Shown: positions 2,826 through 9,448 of the stretch, piece by piece
How the letters are laid out: every line of letters starts with the position of its first letter
Numbering within the stretch: position 1 is the stretch's first letter
Virus record (IMG/VR): IMGVR_UViG_2579778821_000001
Source: a virus
Lineage: Duplodnaviria > Heunggongvirae > Uroviricota > Caudoviricetes
Reading direction: 5' to 3' (one strand)
DNA: 9,448 nucleotides
Program-made: the position numbers and the translations under genes
Notes under the pieces: model-generated
Seen by the model: the letters and a program-made list of their open reading frames with translations, nothing else
What the model was told of the DNA's origin: nothing
Database searches by the model: none

Positions 2826-3851
2826 ATGGGATTGTTTACGACCCGCCAGTTACTCGGTTATACCGAACAAAAAGTGAAATTCCGTGCGCTATTTCTGGAG
2901 CTGTTTTTCCGCCGTACGGTGAATTTCCACACCGAAGAGGTGATGCTGGACAAAATTACCGGAAAAACGCCGGTGGCGGCCTATGTCTCCCCGATCGTTG
3001 AAGGAAAAGTGCTTCGCCATCGCGGTGGTGAAACCCGCGTGTTACGTCCGGGCTACGTCAAGCCGAAACACGAATTTAATTACCAGCAGGCGGTTGAGCG
3101 CCTTCCCGGTGAAGATCCGGCTCAGCTGAACGACCCGGCCTACCGTCGTCTGCGTATCATTACCGATAACCTCAAACAGGAAGAGCACGCCATTGTCCAG
3201 GTGGAAGAAATGCAGGCGGTGAATGCCGTGCTGTATGGCAAATACACCATGGAAGGGGATCAGTTTGATACTGTCGAGGTCGATTTCGGCCGATCGAAGA
3301 AAATAACATCAGCAGGCAGCGGTAAAAAATGGTCAAAACAGGACCGTGACACGTTCGACCCGACACATGATATCGACCTTTACTGCGATCAGGCCAGCGG
3401 CCTTGTGAATATCGCCATTATGGACGGTACGGTCTGGCGTCTGCTGAATGGCTTTAAGCTGTTCCGCGAAAAAATGGATACCCGTCGCGGCTCAAATTCA
3501 CAACTCGAAACGGCAGTGAAAGATCTGGGCGCAGTGGTGTCCTTCAAGGGGTATTACGGCGATCTGGCCATTGTGGTGGCGAAAACGTCTTATGTGGCAG
3601 AGGACGGTACCGAAAAACGTTATCTGCCGGAGGGCATGCTGGTGCTGGGGAATACGGCAGCAGAGGGGATTCGTTGCTATGGTGCCATTAAGGATGCACA
3701 GGCGTTGTCTGAAGGAGTGGTGGCTTCTTCCCGTTACCCGAAACACTGGCTGACCGTGGGCGATCCGTCCTGTGAATTCACCATGACGCAGTCCGCGCCG
3801 CTGATGGTGCTGCCGGATCCGGATGAGTTTGTGGTGGTACAGGTGAAATAA
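2826..3851 (+). CDS. E: Major capsid protein (lambda gpE family)
   Basis: 341 aa, the same length as lambda gpE. Long collinear matches from memory: LFLELFFR, YVSPIV, PGYVKPKHE, DPAYRRLRII, VEEMQAV, GKYTM, RRGSNSQLETAVKDLG, MVLGNT, RYPK, FTMTQSAPLM and DPDEFV. SD AAAGGAA upstream. Confidence 0.95.
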   Translation: MGLFTTRQLLGYTEQKVKFRALFLELFFRRTVNFHTEEVMLDKITGKTPVAAYVSPIVEGKVLRHRGGETRVLRPGYVKPKHEFNYQQAVERLPGEDPAQLNDPAYRRLRIITDNLKQEEHAIVQVEEMQAVNAVLYGKYTMEGDQFDTVEVDFGRSKKITSAGSGKKWSKQDRDTFDPTHDIDLYCDQASGLVNIAIMDGTVWRLLNGFKLFREKMDTRRGSNSQLETAVKDLGAVVSFKGYYGDLAIVVAKTSYVAEDGTEKRYLPEGMLVLGNTAAEGIRCYGAIKDAQALSEGVVASSRYPKHWLTVGDPSCEFTMTQSAPLMVLPDPDEFVVVQVK

Positions 3852-3857
3852 TCCGTG

Positions 3858-3887
3858 AGCGGGGGCGAAATGCCCCCGTGTTTTTTT
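3858..3887 (+). terminator. Rho-independent terminator-like hairpin downstream of the major capsid gene
   Basis: GC stem CGGGGGC (3860-3866) pairs with GCCCCCG (3872-3878) around a GAAAT loop, followed by T7 (3881-3887). It starts 7 nt after the E stop. Confidence 0.7.
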
Positions 3888-3900
3888 CACAGGAGCTGAG

Positions 3901-4053
3901 ATGGCAACAAAAGAAGAAAATCTGAAACGTCTTCGTCAACTGGCTGACCTGCTGGGGCGCGAGGCGGATATGTCGGGGAGTGCTGCGGATATTGCACAAC
4001 GTGTGGCAGAGTGGGAAGAGGAGCTTGCGCCCCGGAAGGAAATAGCACTCTGA
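3901..4053 (+). CDS. FI: FI-like DNA packaging protein, N-terminal domain only (50 aa; gene appears frame-disrupted)
   Basis: ATG 3901 with SD AGGAG (3891-3895). The product MATKEENLKRLRQLADLLGRE...IAQRVAEWEEEL resembles the N-terminus of lambda gpFI (MTKDELIARLRSLGEQLNRD...LALRVAELKEEL) as I recall it. It ends at TGA 4051-4053, where lambda FI is 132 aa. Confidence 0.6.
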   Translation: MATKEENLKRLRQLADLLGREADMSGSAADIAQRVAEWEEELAPRKEIAL

Positions 4054-4252
4054 TGAGACCGGGCTGAGCAAAATCACACACACCGGTGAGGATGACGTTG
4101 GTATTCTGGAACGTATCAGGCTTCTGAAGTGTTTTTACCTGTGCGGTGTTGACGATGAAACAGGTGAGCCTGTTGAGCATGTTGATGCTGGCAGAGTAAT
4201 TCTGATGCCCCCCTCAGTGGCAAAAGACATGGTCAGCACGGAACGGCTGAAT
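4046..4252 (+). pseudogene. FI: FI-like C-terminal-domain coding remnant in the +1 frame, with no start codon and no stop before FII
   Basis: The FII frame is open from 4046 with no ATG, GTG or TTG until 4205. Its translation ...GEPVEHVDAGRVILMPPSVAKDMVSTERLN resembles the lambda gpFI C-terminus (...DEPVAFVLPGTAFRVSAGVAAEMTERGLARMQ) from memory. The other two frames are closed by multiple stops. Confidence 0.45.
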
Positions 4253-4606
4253 ATGCGTGATTTTCAGAATGCCTTTGATGCTGCCCTCGCCGGGGTAGAC
4301 AGTACGATCGTTGAAGTGATGGGGCTCTGTGCGCAGTTCACCTCGGGGGCACAGTGTGGCAGCGAAGTTCAGGGGGTTTTTGATGATCCGGAGTCGCTGG
4401 GGTTTGCCGGTAGCGGGGTCCGTATTGAAGGAAGCAGCCCGTCATTATTTGTGCGGACGGATACGGTTCGTGCCGTGCGGCGTGGTGACACGCTGACCAT
4501 TAATGGTGAGATATTCTGGGTGGATCGTGTTTCTCCGGATGACGGGGGCAGCTGTTATCTCTGGCTCAACCGTGGTCAACCACCCGCAGTTAACCGGCGA
4601 CGATAA
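4253..4606 (+). CDS. FII: Head-tail joining / head completion protein (lambda gpFII family)
   Basis: From ATG 4253 the 117-aa product MRDFQNAFDAALAG...GVFDDPE...GVRIEGSSPSLFVRTD...RRGDTLTI...FWVDRVSPDDGGSC.LWL.RG.PPAVNRRR aligns end-to-end with lambda gpFII (117 aa) from memory. The track ORF begins at an upstream in-frame ATG (4205), which would add 16 residues; the start is uncertain. Confidence 0.9.
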   Translation: MRDFQNAFDAALAGVDSTIVEVMGLCAQFTSGAQCGSEVQGVFDDPESLGFAGSGVRIEGSSPSLFVRTDTVRAVRRGDTLTINGEIFWVDRVSPDDGGSCYLWLNRGQPPAVNRRR

Positions 4607-4621
4607 ACGCAGGGTGAAATT

Positions 4622-5155
4622 ATGGCGATAAAAGGGCTTGATCAGGCGATTGACAATCTGAGCCGGGTTCGTAAAAACGCCATTCCGGCGGCTTCAGCAA
4701 TGACCATTAACCGCGTGGCCACAACGGCGATTAATCAGTCTTCATCACAGGTTGCCCGGGAGACAAAGGTTCGCCGGAAACTGGTTAAGGAACGGTCCAG
4801 ACTGAAACGGGCGACGGTCAGAAATCCGAATGCCAGAATTATCGTTAACCGCGGTGATCTCCCTGTGATTAAGCTGGGGATCAGGATGCTGGGGCGTCGC
4901 CCGAACAGCATACTTAAAGCCGGTCAGCATCGGTATCAGCGGGCATTTATTCAGCGATTAAAAAATGGTCGCTGGCATGTCATGCAGCGTGTGGCCGGGA
5001 AAAACCGTTACCCCATTGATGTGGTGAAAATCCCGATGGCGGCCCCACTGAAACAGGCATTTGATGAGAATGTTGACCGTATCCGGCGTGAACGCCTGCC
5101 TAAAGAACTGGCATCCGCGCTGAAACAACAACTGAGGATTGCAATAAAACGATGA
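4622..5155 (+). CDS. Z: Tail completion protein (lambda gpZ family)
   Basis: 177 aa. The motifs MAIKGL, NLSR, AINRVA, SQVARETKVRRKLVKER.RLKRATV, NRGDLPVIKLG, AFIQ.LKNGRWHVMQRVAGKNRYPIDVVKIPMA and RIRRERLPKEL match lambda gpZ from memory. SD AGGGTGA upstream. Confidence 0.93.
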   Translation: MAIKGLDQAIDNLSRVRKNAIPAASAMTINRVATTAINQSSSQVARETKVRRKLVKERSRLKRATVRNPNARIIVNRGDLPVIKLGIRMLGRRPNSILKAGQHRYQRAFIQRLKNGRWHVMQRVAGKNRYPIDVVKIPMAAPLKQAFDENVDRIRRERLPKELASALKQQLRIAIKR

Positions 5156-5547
5156 AACACACTGACATTCGTGCCGCAGTGCTGGATGCACTCGAGCAGC
5201 ATGAACACGGGGCGACGCTGTTTGATGGTCGCCCCGTTGTTTTTGACGAAGAGGATTTTCCTGCGATCGCGGTTTATCTGACGGATGCAGAGTATACCGG
5301 TGAAGAGCTGGATGCAGATACCTGGCGGGCCACACTGCATATTGAGGTGTTTTTACCGGCACAGGTACCGGATTCAGAGCTTGATCAGTGGATGGAAAGC
5401 CGGATTTACCCGGCGATGACCGCGATCCCGGCACTGGCAGGACTGATTACCACGATGGTTACGCAGGGCTATGAGTATCGTCGTGATGACGATATGGCGT
5501 TATGGAGCTCTGCGGATCTGACTTATTCCATTACATACGAGATGTGA
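5152..5547 (+). CDS. U: Tail terminator / tail-tube terminator protein (lambda gpU family)
   Basis: 131 aa, the same length as lambda gp[89 protein letters not shown] and ITYEM match from memory. The start overlaps the Z stop (ATGA). Confidence 0.95.
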
Positions 5548-5554
5548 GGACGAT

Positions 5555-6307
5555 ATGGCAACACCAAATCCCCTGGAGCCAGTAAAAGGTGCCGGTACCA
5601 CTCTGTGGGTTTACAACGGCAAGGGTGATGCTTATGCAAACCCGTTGTCAGACGATGACTGGCAGCGACTGGCTAAGGTGAAGGATCTGACGCCGGGCGA
5701 GATGACGGCAGAATCCTACGATGATAACTACCTGGATGATGAAGACGCAGACTGGACCGCGACCGGGCAGGGGCAGAAATCTGCAGGTGATACCAGTTTT
5801 ACGCTGGCCTGGAAACCGGGAGAGGAAGGCCAGAAAGGGCTTATAGGCTGGTTTGAAAGCGGCGATGTCCGGGCCTATAAAATCCGTTTTCCGAATGGCA
5901 CGGTGGATGTGTTTCGTGGCTGGGTCAGCAGTATCGGTAAGGCCGTGACGGCGAAAGAAGTGATCACCCGCACGGTGAAAGTCACTAACGTGGGTAAACC
6001 TTCTGTAGCGGAAGAACGCAGCAAAATTACGCCGGTCAGTGCGATTAAGGTGACGCCGACATCCGGTACGGTGGCAAAAGGGAAAACAACCACCCTGACG
6101 GTTTCTTTTGAGCCGGAAAGTGCAACCGACAAGACGTTCAGAGCGGTTTCCGCCGATCCGTCGAAAGCCACCATTAGTGTGAAAGATATGACAATTACGG
6201 TAAACGGCGTGGCGACAGGTAAGGTGCAGATCCCTGTGGTGAGCGGAAATGGTCAGTTCGCCGCAGTGGCTGAAGTCACCGTTACTGAAGCGGGCGCTGC
6301 AGGGTAA
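5555..6307 (+). CDS. V: Major tail tube protein with C-terminal Ig-like (Big_2-type) domain (lambda gpV family)
   Basis: 250 aa. [109 protein letters not shown] and the C-terminal [28 protein letters not shown] match lambda gpV from memory. Confidence 0.95.
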
Positions 6308-6320
6308 ACGGAGGTAATAC

Positions 6321-6752
6321 ATGTTTCTGAAAACAGAACAATTTGAATATAACGGTGTGTCTGTCACGCTTTCCGAATTGTCTGCGCTGCAGCGTATCGA
6401 GCATCTTGCCCTCCTGAAACGGCGTGCAGAACAGGCAGAATCCTGCGGCAACCTGCAGGTTAGCGTGGAAGATCTCGTCAGAACCGGCGCGTTTCTGGTG
6501 GCGATGTCCCTGTGGCATAACCATCCACAGAAAACGCAGTCACCGTCAATGAATGAGGCCGTGATGAAGATAGAGCAGGAAGTGCTCACCACCTGGCCTG
6601 CCGATGCCATTGCCCGGGCGGAAGACGTGGTGTTGTGCCTGTCCGGGATGATCGAAGCTGTTCGTCCGGATACTGATATTACTGAAGTGGCGAAAAATAA
6701 CACGCTGACTGATGATGATTTTTCTGCGGGAAAGTCTTCGACGGCGAGCTGA
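6321..6752 (+). CDS. G: Tail assembly chaperone (lambda gpG family)
   Basis: 143 aa. MFLKTE.FE.NGV.VTLSELSALQRIEHLAL.KR.AEQAES, RTGAFLVAMSLWHNHPQKTQ.PSMNEAV and IEQEVLTTWP match lambda gpG from memory. SD GGAGG upstream. The slippery heptamer lies near the 3' end. Confidence 0.93.
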   Translation: MFLKTEQFEYNGVSVTLSELSALQRIEHLALLKRRAEQAESCGNLQVSVEDLVRTGAFLVAMSLWHNHPQKTQSPSMNEAVMKIEQEVLTTWPADAIARAEDVVLCLSGMIEAVRPDTDITEVAKNNTLTDDDFSAGKSSTAS

Positions 6753-7192
6753 ACTTTGCCCTCAGACTGGCGCGTGAGATGGGGAGACCCGACTGGCGCG
6801 CCATGCTTGCCGGGATGACATCCACCGAATATGCCGACTGGCACCGTTTTTACCGCACGCATTATTTTCAGGATACCCAGCTGGATATGCATTTTTCCGG
6901 GCTGACGTACGCTGTACTCAGCCTGTTTTTTTGCGATCCGGATATGCATCCCTCTGATTTCAGTCTGCTTGTCCCCCGGCATGAGGAAGAGCAGGTGGAG
7001 AGGCCGGATGAGGACAAAATGCTGATGCAGAAAGCGGCAGGACTTGCCGGAGGCGTCCGGTTCGGTGGGGACGGAGGGCGCGATATTTTATCGTCTGCGG
7101 ATGTGGCGGATGTCATGGTGGATGATGCCGCATTAATGATGGCTTCAGCGGGGATTCCGGGAGGTGTGAGATATGTCCCAGCCGGTTGGTGA
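6321..7192 (+). CDS. T: Tail assembly chaperone G-T fusion, produced by -1 frameshift at 6728-6734 (T portion 6734..7192)
   Basis: The T-frame translation ...KVFDGELNFALRLAREMGRPDWRAMLAGMTSTEYADWHRFYRTHYF...DMHFSGLTY.VLSLFF.DPDMHP.DFSLL...LMQKAAGLAGGVRFG matches the lambda gpT region from memory. The T frame has no plausible independent RBS and start before 6779, consistent with expression only as a G-T fusion. Confidence 0.8.
6728..6734 (+). other. Programmed -1 ribosomal frameshift slippery heptamer G_GGA_AAG (G to G-T fusion)
   Basis: GGGAAAG at 6728-6734, with GGA and AAG as zero-frame codons of G (...F S A G K). The -1 frame from 6728 (GGG AAA GTC TTC GAC GGC GAG CTG AAC TTT GCC...) is open to the T stop at 7190-7192. 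The heptamer and its position match the lambda G/G-T frameshift. Confidence 0.8.
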
Positions 7193-9448
7193 TCTTGTTA
7201 TTGACCTGAGTCTGGATGCTGTCCGTTTCGATGAGCAGATGAGCCGGGTAAGGCGTCATTTTTCAGGTCTGGATACCGACGCCAGAAAAACCGCCAGTGC
7301 TGTTGAACAGGGCCTGAGCCGCCAGGCGCTGGCTGCACAAAAAGCCGGGATTTCCGTCGGGCAGTATAAAGCGGCCATGCGAACCCTGCCCGCACAGTTT
7401 ACGGATATCGCCACGCAGCTTGCCGGTGGTCAGAATCCCTGGTTGATCCTGCTGCAACAGGGCGGTCAGGTGAAGGACTCCTTCGGCGGGATGATCCCCA
7501 TGTTCAGGGGGCTTGCCGGTGCGATCACCCTGCCGATGGTCGGGGTCACCTCGCTGGCGGTGGCGACAGGTGCGCTGGCGTACGCCTGGTACCAGGGCGA
7601 CGCCACGCTTTCAGAATTTAATAAAACGCTGGTCCTTTCCGGCAATCAGGCCGGACTGACTGCCGATCGTATGCTGACGCTCTCAAGAGCCGGGCAGGCA
7701 GCAGGGCTGACGTTTAACCAGGCGAGAGAGTCACTGGCAGCCCTGGTGAATGCCGGTGTGCGTGGTGGTGAACAGTTTGATGCCATCAACCAGAGTGTCG
7801 CGCGTTTTGCGTCTGCATCCGGTGTGGAGGTGGATAAAGTCGCTGAAGCCTTCGGGAAGCTGACCACTGACCCGACGTCGGGACTGATGGCGATGGCGCG
7901 CCAGTTCCGTAACGTGACGGCAGAGCAGATTGCGTATGTTGCACAGCTGCAGCGTTCCGGAGACGAGGCCGGGGCATTGCAGGCGGCGAACGATATCGCC
8001 ACGAAAGGCTTTGATGAGCAGACCCGTCGCCTGAAAGAAAACATGGGAACACTGGAGACCTGGGCGGATAAAACAGGGAAGGCATTCAAATCGATGTGGG
8101 ATGCCATTCTGGATATCGGTCGTCCGGAATCCTCAGCGGATATGCTCGCCAGTGCGCAGAGGGCATTTGATGAGGCGGATAAAAAATGGCAGTGGTACCA
8201 GAGCCGGAGCCAGCGCCGGGGAAAGACCTCCTCTTTTCGTGCGAACCTTCAGGGGGCATGGGATGACCGGGAAAATGCCCGTCTGGGTCTGGCAGCGGCC
8301 ACGCTGCAGTCGGATATGGAAAAAGCCGGTGAACTGGCGGCAAGGGACAGGGCTGAGCGTGAGTCGTCACAGCTGAAGTATACCGGAGAGGCGCAGAAGG
8401 CGTATGAGCGCCTGCAGACGCCGCTGGATAAATATACCGCCCGTCAGAAAGAGCTGAATAAGGCCCTGAAAGACGGAAAAATCCTGCAGGCGGATTACAA
8501 CACGCTGATGGCGTCGGCAAAAAAGGATTATGAATCGACGCTGAAAAAGCCGTCAGGTGTGAAGGTGTCTGCCGGTGAGCGCCAGGAAGACCGGGCGCAT
8601 GCAGCCCTGCTGGCGCTTGAAACCGAGCTCAGGACGCTGGAAAAACACAGCGGTGTGAATGAGAAAATCAGCCAGCAGCGCCGGGATTTATGGGAAGCGG
8701 AAAGTCAGTATGTGGTCCTGAAAGAGGCCGCCACGAAACGGCAGTTATCTGAGCAGGAAAAATCCCTGCTGGCTCATGAGAAAGAGACGCTGGAGTACAA
8801 ACGCCAGCTGGCTGAGCTGGGAGACAAGATTGAACACCAGAAGCGGCTGAATGAGCTGGCACAGCAGGCGGCGCGGTTTGAACAGCAGCAAAGCGCGAAG
8901 CAGGCGGCAATCAGCGCAAAAGCCCGCGGCCTCACCGACCGTCAGGCGCAGCGGGAGTCGGAAGAGCAGCGCCTTCGTGAGGTGTACGGTGATAATCCGG
9001 CTGCGCTGGCGAAGGCCACATCGGCACTGAAGAACACCTGGTCTGCGGAGGAGCAGCTTCGTGGAAGCTGGATGGCCGGGATGAAGTCCGGCTGGGGAGT
9101 GTGGGCGGAAAGTGCGACGGACAGTTTTTCGCAGGTTAAAAGTGTGGCCACGCAGACCTTTGACGGTATTGCACAGAATATGGCGGCGATGCTGACCGGC
9201 AGCGAACAGAACTGGCGGGGGTTCACCCGTTCCGTGCTGTCCATGATGACAGAAATTCTGCTTAAGCAGGCAATGGTGGGGATTGTCGGGAGTATCGGCA
9301 GCGCCATTGGCGGGGCTGTTGGTGGCGGCGCATCCGCGTCAGGCGGTACAGCCATTCAGGCCGCTGCGGCGAAATTCCATTTTGCAACCGGAGGATTTAC
9401 GGGAACCGGCGGCAAATATGAGCCAGCGGGGATTGTTCACCGTGGTGA
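7173..9448 (+). CDS. H: Tail tape measure protein (lambda gpH family), 3'-truncated by window end
   Basis: ATG 7173 with SD GGGAGGTG (7160-7167); overlaps the T stop. The translation MSQPVGDLVIDLSLDAVRFDEQMSRVRRHF...AQKAGISVGQYKAAMR.LPAQFTD.ATQLAGGQNPWLILLQQGGQVKDSFGGMIPMFRGLAGAITLPMVG...ILLKQAMVGIVGSIGSAIGGAVGGGASASGGTAIQAAAAKFHFATGGFTGTGGKYEPAGIVHRG is collinear with lambda gpH from memory. The frame is open to the last base of the window. It is absent from the ORF track only because no stop lies within the window. Confidence 0.93.
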   Translation, partial: MSQPVGDLVIDLSLDAVRFDEQMSRVRRHFSGLDTDARKTASAVEQGLSRQALAAQKAGISVGQYKAAMRTLPAQFTDIATQLAGGQNPWLILLQQGGQVKDSFGGMIPMFRGLAGAITLPMVGVTSLAVATGALAYAWYQGDATLSEFNKTLVLSGNQAGLTADRMLTLSRAGQAAGLTFNQARESLAALVNAGVRGGEQFDAINQSVARFASASGVEVDKVAEAFGKLTTDPTSGLMAMARQFRNVTAEQIAYVAQLQRSGDEAGALQAANDIATKGFDEQTRRLKENMGTLETWADKTGKAFKSMWDAILDIGRPESSADMLASAQRAFDEADKKWQWYQSRSQRRGKTSSFRANLQGAWDDRENARLGLAAATLQSDMEKAGELAARDRAERESSQLKYTGEAQKAYERLQTPLDKYTARQKELNKALKDGKILQADYNTLMASAKKDYESTLKKPSGVKVSAGERQEDRAHAALLALETELRTLEKHSGVNEKISQQRRDLWEAESQYVVLKEAATKRQLSEQEKSLLAHEKETLEYKRQLAELGDKIEHQKRLNELAQQAARFEQQQSAKQAAISAKARGLTDRQAQRESEEQRLREVYGDNPAALAKATSALKNTWSAEEQLRGSWMAGMKSGWGVWAESATDSFSQVKSVATQTFDGIAQNMAAMLTGSEQNWRGFTRSVLSMMTEILLKQAMVGIVGSIGSAIGGAVGGGASASGGTAIQAAAAKFHFATGGFTGTGGKYEPAGIVHRG

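What the first reader, a model, noticed from the sequence alone, without database searches (positions are those of the whole stretch)
3901..4255. FI-like packaging gene is split across two frames and its C-terminal part runs in frame into FII
The FI-like ORF (3901-4053) stops after 50 codons at a TGA TGA double stop. The sequence resembling the FI C-terminus continues in the +1 frame from 4046 with no start codon, then reads without a stop into the FII start at 4253. The region is also about 19 codons shorter than the lambda FI-to-FII distance. Possible explanations are a decayed FI pseudogene, an assembly or sequencing indel near 4045-4053, or (least likely) +1 recoding at the CUC-UGA stop context with an AAGGA 8 nt upstream. 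FI aids terminase-prohead interaction but is not strictly essential in lambda, so loss may be tolerated.
Basis: partly seen in the sequence, partly recalled or inferred. Interest (0 to 1): 0.55.

Follow-up and report, generated by a model that had tools for sequence, protein, structure and literature searches.

The report
Split FI gene is assembly artefact
The broken phage packaging gene FI is real in the deposited sequence, but it is most likely a scar made when a short-read assembler merged two similar prophages of one E. coli strain into a single contig, so it is not biology.

Summary
FI starts at 3901 and stops after 50 codons at TGA TGA (4051-4056). The FI C-terminal domain reads in the next frame from 4046 and runs into FII (ATG 4253).

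The window is the whole 9448-bp contig JJLM01000016.1 of the draft genome of E. coli 1-182-04_S4_C2 (100-bp Illumina reads, MaSuRCA assembler).

- **Blended junction:** 4022-4078 alternates almost base by base between two common natural FI alleles, with odd 1-4 nt gaps.
- **Second scar:** the essential capsid gene E carries the same kind of damage at 3297-3317.
- **No natural match:** none of 5426 complete E. coli genomes has any of these junctions, although the flanks match at 100%.
- **Sibling colony:** colony C3 has the same sequence type and serotype and came from the same stool sample. Its copy of this contig differs at 94 positions, 65 of them exact swaps between the two alleles. There FI is in frame and E is split.

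Best explanation: a collapsed two-prophage repeat with a chimeric consensus. A real pseudogene is unlikely and recoding has no support. Interest is low.

The parts
3901..4053 (+). FI N-terminal ORF: 50 codons plus TGA, followed by a second TGA at 4054-4056. It is mostly PhiR12_1/phage-204576-type sequence.
   Evidence: Pfam PF14000 Packaging_FI is on record for this product. tblastn matches FI residues 1-50 in frame 1.
4022..4078 (+). 5' chimeric junction in the FI linker. It alternates at short range between the O111_15A-type and PhiR12_1-type alleles, with gaps of 1 to 4 nt found in neither allele. The net effect moves the reading frame by +1.
   Evidence: Alignments. Run analysis gives about 12 allele switches between 4022 and 4079. 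The best full-length match in 5426 complete E. coli genomes is 79.8%. There is no exact match in 185,579 species-representative genomes.
4079..4234 (+). FI C-terminal domain (GEDDVGILERIRLLKCFYLCGVDDETGEPVEHVDAGRVILMPPSVAKDMV), read in frame 2, the same frame as FII.
   Evidence: 100% protein identity to residues 63-114 of the O111:H21 15A prophage FI. All 86 informative sites in 4079-4238 are O-type.
4232..4238 (+). 3' junction. O-type ...ATG GTC and R-type CAG CAC... share the single base C4234, so one base is lost and the frame returns to frame 1.
   Evidence: The best natural match to 4190-4275 is 93.1% and needs a 1-nt gap.
4234..4260 (+). Last 8 FI codons plus stop (QHGTAEYA*) in frame 1. 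This is PhiR12_1-type sequence and overlaps the FII start in the usual ATGCGTGA arrangement.
4253..4606 (+). FII (head-tail joining protein, 117 aa), intact.
   Evidence: PF05354 on record; annotated orthologues.
3297..3317 (+). Second chimeric scar, inside the major capsid gene E. A 1-nt and a 2-nt loss scramble 8 codons (KKITSAGS replaces TKNNIIQGS or EGNNIEQAD). E is 341 aa here and 342 aa in the relatives.
   Evidence: This 341-aa E is on exactly one contig, in a cluster of 6777 members. The best natural match to 3255-3345 is 87.2%.

Best explanation
The split FI is an assembly artefact.

Strain E. coli 1-182-04_S4_C2 most likely carries two lambdoid (phage-21-like) prophages whose head-tail modules are nearly identical over about 9.4 kb. 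They differ sharply in short patches: the FI linker and C-domain, a patch of E, and the end of Z. One copy resembles the O111:H21 15A prophage and the other resembles PhiR12_1 / phage 204576.

MaSuRCA builds super-reads and passes them to the Celera overlap-layout-consensus assembler. It merged the two copies into one contig and called a column-by-column consensus over a poor alignment of the two alleles. That gives a sequence that hops between alleles and gains or loses 1-4 bases at the most divergent spots.

In FI the result is an R-type N-terminus in frame 1, a blended linker, an O-type C-domain shifted into the FII frame, and an R-type tail back in frame 1.

Shown here: the source contig, the uniqueness of the junctions, the blend pattern, the second scar in E, and the discordant contig from the sibling colony. 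Inferred: that two copies exist in this strain, and that the assembler's consensus step produced the blend.
For: 1. **Source.** The window is the entire contig JJLM01000016.1 of draft assembly GCA_000627215.1, E. coli 1-182-04_S4_C2. It was made from 100-bp HiSeq reads with MaSuRCA 2.3.2 (PMC6222053). Both ends lie inside phage genes (portal and tape measure), as expected for a repeat contig.
2. **Multi-copy module.** This module is often present more than once per genome: a median of 2 and up to 10 places per genome among 4098 complete E. coli genomes.
3. **Identity profile.** The contig is 100% identical to the O111_15A prophage over 1-2250 and about 5250-9448. In between it is a mosaic with the PhiR12_1/204576 type.
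4. **Blend.** In 4022-4078 the sequence switches allele about 12 times in 57 nt and carries gaps found in neither allele.
5. **Second scar.** A scar of the same kind scrambles 8 codons of the essential capsid gene E, including the NNI residues shared by both natural alleles.
6. **No natural match.** No complete E. coli genome has any of the three junctions; the best matches are 79.8%, 87.2% and 93.1%. The 50-aa FI and the 341-aa E each occur on exactly one contig among 153 billion recorded gene positions, and neither lists Logan, the assemblies of public sequencing runs, as a source.
7. **Sibling colony.** Colony C3 shares ST2186, phylogroup B1 and serotype O182:H23 with C2 and came from the same stool sample (Table S1). 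Its contig (L010) is the same one but differs at 94 of 7460 positions. Of these, 65 are exact swaps of O-type for R-type state, concentrated at the same hot spots. In C3, FI is an in-frame 123-aa chimera found nowhere else, and E is frameshifted into 194 + 143 aa.
8. **Each variant in one assembly only.** Each variant occurs only in its own assembly. So either one copy exists and at least one contig is wrong, or two copies exist and each contig is a collapse of them.
9. **Same project.** Other drafts of this project show the same damage: 2-210-07_S3_C3 has FI split 86+40 and U split 78+51, and 2-177-06_S4_C3 and 3-475-03_S3_C2 have truncated FI.
Against: - No reads or coverage could be inspected, so the two-copy state of this strain is inferred, not seen.
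- I could not find the contig of the third sibling colony (C1).
- Truncated FI genes do occur in other E. coli records, including on megabase contigs (P0061, P0068, P0082). Real FI pseudogenes are therefore not rare a priori.
- The two reference alleles are not the exact parents, so some apparent switches are natural polymorphism.
- Recombination between co-resident prophages is a known real process and could give complementary mosaics, though not out-of-register blends at this scale.
- How MaSuRCA's consensus step behaves on such repeats rests on my own knowledge of its design. The assembler paper was not available.
Confidence: 0.87

Rival explanations
1. Real FI pseudogene. One resident prophage truly carries this mosaic, frameshifted FI. 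It would have arisen by illegitimate or patchy recombination (gene conversion) between two co-resident lambdoid prophages, and would persist because the prophage is decaying or because FI is only partly required.
For: - Truncated FI ORFs are frequent in public E. coli data, some on megabase contigs.
- All other genes of the module are open in the window.
- Lambdoid prophages in one genome are known to recombine (established knowledge).
Against: - The junction is unique to one draft contig.
- About 12 allele switches in 57 nt, with out-of-register gaps, do not look like recombination.
- The essential gene E carries the same kind of scar.
- The sibling colony of the same clone gives a different sequence at exactly these spots.
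Confidence: 0.08
2. Simple sequencing or assembly indel. A single missing or extra base near 4045-4053 breaks an otherwise genuine FI allele.
For:
- One-base deletions at homopolymers of the FI linker do occur in other records (P0056, P0061, P0064, P0066).
Against: - No single-base repair restores a natural allele. Relative to either parent the linker differs by several gaps and many substitutions, and a second frame change lies at 4234.
- No natural allele matches the 101-nt junction at more than 79.8% over its full length; partial-coverage hits were in the 80-90% band.
Confidence: 0.03
3. Programmed +1 ribosomal frameshift at CUC-UGA (4048-4053) that yields an FI-FII fusion protein.
For: - A stop codon sits at the shift point and a purine-rich AAGGA lies upstream.
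- The +1 frame stays open through FII.
- One other record has an FI-FII fusion ORF (P0065).
Against: - The site is not conserved. Every relative examined, including the sibling colony, has an ordinary single-frame FI of 122-127 aa without it.
- CUC to UCU re-pairing is poor, and the spacing of AAGGA differs from the prfB arrangement (established knowledge).
- The product would lack the native FI C-terminus and would tie FI to FII.
- The site lies inside a stretch that is itself a blend of two alleles.
Confidence: 0.01

Closest known systems
Collapsed-repeat chimeric consensus in short-read draft assemblies (haplotype or phase switching between near-identical repeat copies)
   Same: - A short contig bounded inside repeated prophage genes.
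- Sequence alternates between two known alleles.
- Small indels sit at the most divergent patches.
- Independent assemblies of the same clone resolve the sites differently.
- The junctions are absent from finished genomes.
   Different: Read depth and mixed pile-ups, the usual direct proof, could not be examined here.
Lambda-family DNA-packaging protein FI (Pfam PF14000), phage-21-type alleles of 122-127 aa
   Same: - The N-terminal 50 aa and the C-terminal domain are both present and highly similar to natural FI.
- Position between E and FII, and the ATGCGTGA overlap with FII, are as in phage 21, PhiR5_1 and PhiR12_1.
   Different: - It is not a single ORF.
- The linker matches no natural allele.
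- Different parts come from two different allele families.
prfB-type programmed +1 frameshifting
   Same: An in-frame UGA at the frame change, and a purine-rich stretch upstream.
   Different: - No conservation of the site.
- A different P-site codon (CUC, not CUU).
- Different spacing of the Shine-Dalgarno-like element.
- No plausible function for the fusion product.

Membership tests
Lambda FI (PF14000 Packaging_FI) | N-terminal FI domain present | tested here: met
   PF14000 is on record for the 50-aa product. The product is 76-88% identical to residues 1-50 (1-62 for PhiR12_1) of the phage 21, PhiR5_1, PhiR12_1 and O111_15A FI proteins and of the sibling colony's own chimeric FI, which gives the 88%.
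Lambda FI (PF14000 Packaging_FI) | C-terminal FI domain present | tested here: met
   Positions 4079-4234 in frame 2 are 100% identical to residues 63-114 of O111_15A FI.
Lambda FI (PF14000 Packaging_FI) | One continuous ORF of about 120-132 codons between E and FII | tested here: not met
   The gene is split over frames 1, 2 and 1.
Programmed +1 frameshift (prfB-like) | Shift site and two-frame layout conserved among homologues | tested here: not met
   All natural relatives and the sibling colony have single-frame FI. The junction is absent from 5426 complete genomes.
Programmed +1 frameshift (prfB-like) | CUU-UGA-type shift-prone codon with a Shine-Dalgarno-like element about 3 nt upstream | tested here: not met
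   The sequence is GAAGGAAATAGCA CUC UGA UGA. The P-site codon is CUC, and AAGGA ends about 8 nt upstream. The comparison with prfB is from established knowledge.
Collapsed-repeat assembly chimera | Junction sequences found only in this assembly | tested here: met
Collapsed-repeat assembly chimera | Sequence is a fine-scale alternation of two alleles that exist intact elsewhere | tested here: met
Collapsed-repeat assembly chimera | Independent assembly of the same clone resolves the same sites differently | tested here: met
   Contigs of C2 and C3 show 94 differences, 65 of them allele swaps. Clonality is taken from Table S1 of PMC6222053.
Collapsed-repeat assembly chimera | About twofold read depth and biallelic pile-ups on the contig | not testable with these tools
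   No read data were available.

The most novel reading that the evidence does not exclude
The junctions are real DNA. Patchy gene conversion between two co-resident lambdoid prophages produced a frame-broken FI, and its C-terminal domain is expressed fused to FII, through a +1 shift at CUC-UGA or from an internal start. That would be a natural FI-FII fusion.
Probability: 0.02. Interest if true: 0.5.

Novelty: not a real feature. Interest (0 to 1): 0.05.

Why it matters
It matters mainly as a caution. In draft genomes of strains with several lambdoid prophages, short phage contigs can be blended consensus sequences. Their apparent pseudogenes, gene fusions or recoding sites, and unique protein variants such as the 50-aa FI and the 341-aa capsid protein deposited from this contig, should not be read as biology without checking the reads. 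Nothing here bears on how FI works.

Tried and rejected
- An exact search for the 43-nt junction in 185,579 species-representative genomes found nothing.
- Paper searches for the WGS accession and the strain name found nothing. The source paper was found by topic instead.
- I looked for the third sibling colony (S4_C1) among cluster members of ten FI clusters and did not find it.
- The MaSuRCA paper was not held, so the statement about its consensus step rests on my own knowledge.
- I tested whether a natural R-type allele with a 1-nt deletion (E. coli 5.0959, P0056) explains the linker. It shares GCTGAGCAAAATCACA but not the rest.
- I tested whether a natural allele joins an O-type C-domain to the QHGTAEYA end. 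The best hit (STEC299) is an ordinary O-type FI ending VRSGMAVYA.
- Recoding and a single-base indel were considered and rejected for the reasons given under rival explanations.

Full report
**Observation.** The window carries a lambdoid head-tail module: the portal gene end (5-889), C/Nu3 (879-2384), D (2421-2768), E (2826-3851), FI, FII (4253-4606), Z, U, V, G, T and the start of H. FI starts at ATG 3901 and stops after 50 codons at TGA 4051-4053, followed by TGA 4054-4056. The next frame opens at 4046 and runs without a stop through the FII ATG at 4253 to the FII stop. tblastn with FI proteins of relatives puts residues 1-50 in frame 1 (3901-4047). It puts residues 63-114 in frame 2 (4079-4234), 100% identical to the FI of an E. 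coli O111:H21 15A prophage.

Two points need adjusting. First, the last 8 codons of FI, QHGTAEYA plus stop (4234-4260), are back in frame 1. There are therefore two frame changes, and 3901-4260 is exactly 120 codons. Second, the "19 codons shorter than lambda" figure is arithmetically right (352 against 410 nt), but lambda is not the right comparator. The close relatives have FI of 122-127 aa that overlaps FII by 8 nt.

**Where the sequence comes from.** An exact look-up of the 50-aa product finds one contig among 153 billion recorded gene positions: JJLM01000016.1, 9448 bp, of assembly GCA_000627215.1. The window is that whole contig. The source names it E. coli 1-182-04_S4_C2. The genome belongs to a study of E. 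coli from Tanzanian children. That study used 100-bp HiSeq reads assembled with MaSuRCA 2.3.2, with up to three colonies taken per stool sample (PMC6222053). Table S1 lists colonies S4_C1, C2 and C3 of subject 1-182-04. C2 and C3 are both ST2186, phylogroup B1, O182:H23, and C1 is typed the same. The paper cites this subject as an example of low diversity within a time point.

**Anatomy of the break.** Two natural allele families of FI are common in E. coli prophages.
- An "O-type" of 122 aa is found in the O111:H21 15A prophage, PhiR5_1 and many others.
- An "R-type" of 127 aa is found in PhiR12_1 and phage 204576.

The contig is 100% identical to the O111_15A prophage over 1-2250 and about 5250-9448. 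Between these it is a mosaic of the two types.

Within FI the layout is as follows.
- The N-terminus is mostly R-type.
- 4079-4234 is pure O-type.
- 4234-4309 is R-type.
- The 57 nt from 4022 to 4078 switch allele about 12 times and carry gaps of 1-4 nt found in neither allele.
- At the 3' junction the O-type codon GTC and the R-type codon CAG share the single base C4234, so one base is lost.

A second scar of the same kind lies in the essential capsid gene E at 3297-3317. A 1-nt and a 2-nt loss scramble 8 codons. The NNI residues shared by both natural alleles are lost, and E is 341 aa instead of 342. That E sequence occurs on one contig only, in a cluster of 6777 members.

**Is it found anywhere else?** It is not. 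Among 5426 complete E. coli genomes the best full-length matches are 79.8% for 4010-4110 and 87.2% for 3255-3345. For 4190-4275 the best match is 93.1% and needs a 1-nt gap. Overall identity of the contig to the best genomes is 98.7%. The best hit to the 3' junction is an ordinary O-type FI. An exact search for the junction in 185,579 representative genomes found nothing.

**The sibling colony.** A protein search with a conceptually repaired FI gave as best hit a singleton 123-aa FI (P0001) from E. coli 1-182-04_S4_C3. Its contig (JJLH01000074.1, 7509 bp, L010) is the same module and is 99-100% identical to the window, apart from the two bins that hold the scars in E and FI (87-89%) and its truncated end. 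It differs at 94 of 7460 positions. Of these, 65 are exact exchanges of O-state for R-state, concentrated at 3275-3374, 4028-4078 and 4232-4251. In C3, FI is an in-frame chimera that also exists nowhere else, and E has lost one base at the same hot spot and is split into 194 + 143 aa.

Each variant is present only in its own assembly. There are two possibilities.
- If the clone has one copy of the module, at least one contig is wrong.
- If it has two, each assembly reports only one, so each contig is a collapse of the two.

In either case the junction sequences are unreliable.

Other drafts of the same project show the same sort of damage. In 2-210-07_S3_C3, FI is split 86+40 and U is split 78+51. 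FI is truncated in 2-177-06_S4_C3 and 3-475-03_S3_C2. This module is commonly multi-copy, with a median of 2 and up to 10 places per genome.

**Mechanism.** By inference, the strain has two phage-21-like prophages with near-identical head-tail modules. MaSuRCA passes super-reads to the Celera overlap-layout-consensus assembler. Long super-reads from the two copies overlap within tolerance, are merged, and the consensus is called column by column. Where the alleles are about 60% identical the multiple alignment is poor, so the vote alternates between alleles and drops or keeps bases arbitrarily. This accounts for the blend, the odd gaps, the two compensating frame changes, the scar in E and the different outcome in the sibling assembly. 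The part about the assembler's design rests on my own knowledge, because its paper was not available.

**Rivals.**
- A real pseudogene made by recombination between co-resident prophages remains possible, since truncated FI genes occur elsewhere. It does not explain the base-level blending, the parallel scar in E, or the discordant sibling. I give it about 0.08.
- A single-base error is excluded, because no one-base repair yields a natural allele.
- Programmed +1 frameshifting at CUC-UGA has no support. The site is not conserved in any relative or in the sibling colony. The context differs from the prfB case. The product would be an FI-FII fusion lacking the native FI end.

**Comparison with known things.** The pieces belong to the lambda FI family (PF14000), but the gene as deposited fails the single-ORF criterion. 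The phenomenon matches the known class of collapsed-repeat chimeric consensus in short-read drafts. Three of its defining features were tested and met. The fourth, read depth and mixed pile-ups, could not be tested.

**Verdict.** This is not a real feature, and interest is low. Confidence in the artefact reading is about 0.87. The decisive test is to map the isolate's reads to the contig and look for junction-spanning reads and for a second allele.

Noticed in passing
window 3297-3317 (gene E, 2826-3851): The major capsid gene carries two small compensating deletions that scramble 8 codons. E is 341 aa here against 342 aa in all relatives, and this protein is unique to this contig. It is the same kind of chimeric scar as in FI.
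   Followed up: yes
window 3859-3886: A GC-rich hairpin (9 pairs) followed by T7 lies between the E stop and the FI ribosome-binding site. It looks like a terminator and is conserved in the related phages. It may be a read-through terminator or an mRNA-stabilising element in the late operon.
   Followed up: partly
window 6728-6734: GGGAAAG sits near the end of G (6321-6752), upstream of T (6779-7192). This is the lambda-type slippery heptamer for the G/GT -1 frameshift.
   Followed up: partly
L010 (sibling colony contig JJLH01000074.1) 2857-3884 and 3936-4307: In the sibling assembly E is split into 194 + 143 aa, and FI is an in-frame chimera of the two alleles found nowhere else.
   Followed up: yes
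L011 (E. coli 2-210-07_S3_C3, JNQA01000094.1) 3717-4096 and 4988-5383: Another draft of the same project has FI split 86 + 40 aa and tail gene U split 78 + 51 aa. This suggests the problem is systematic for these prophage modules in that data set.
   Followed up: partly
proteins P0056, P0061, P0064, P0066 (L012 1501-1883 for P0056): Several E. coli records carry R-type FI with a one-base deletion at different linker positions. P0056 loses a base in a GGG run (GGGCCT to GGCCT); the other positions were inferred from the protein sequences only. All give 87-aa products, and one lies on a 4.9-Mb contig. They could be real pseudogenes or sequencing errors.
   Followed up: partly
protein clusters of FI; P0065: Very many "partial" FI proteins occur in draft genomes, so contigs often end inside FI. 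One record has a 192-aa FI-FII fusion ORF.
   Followed up: no
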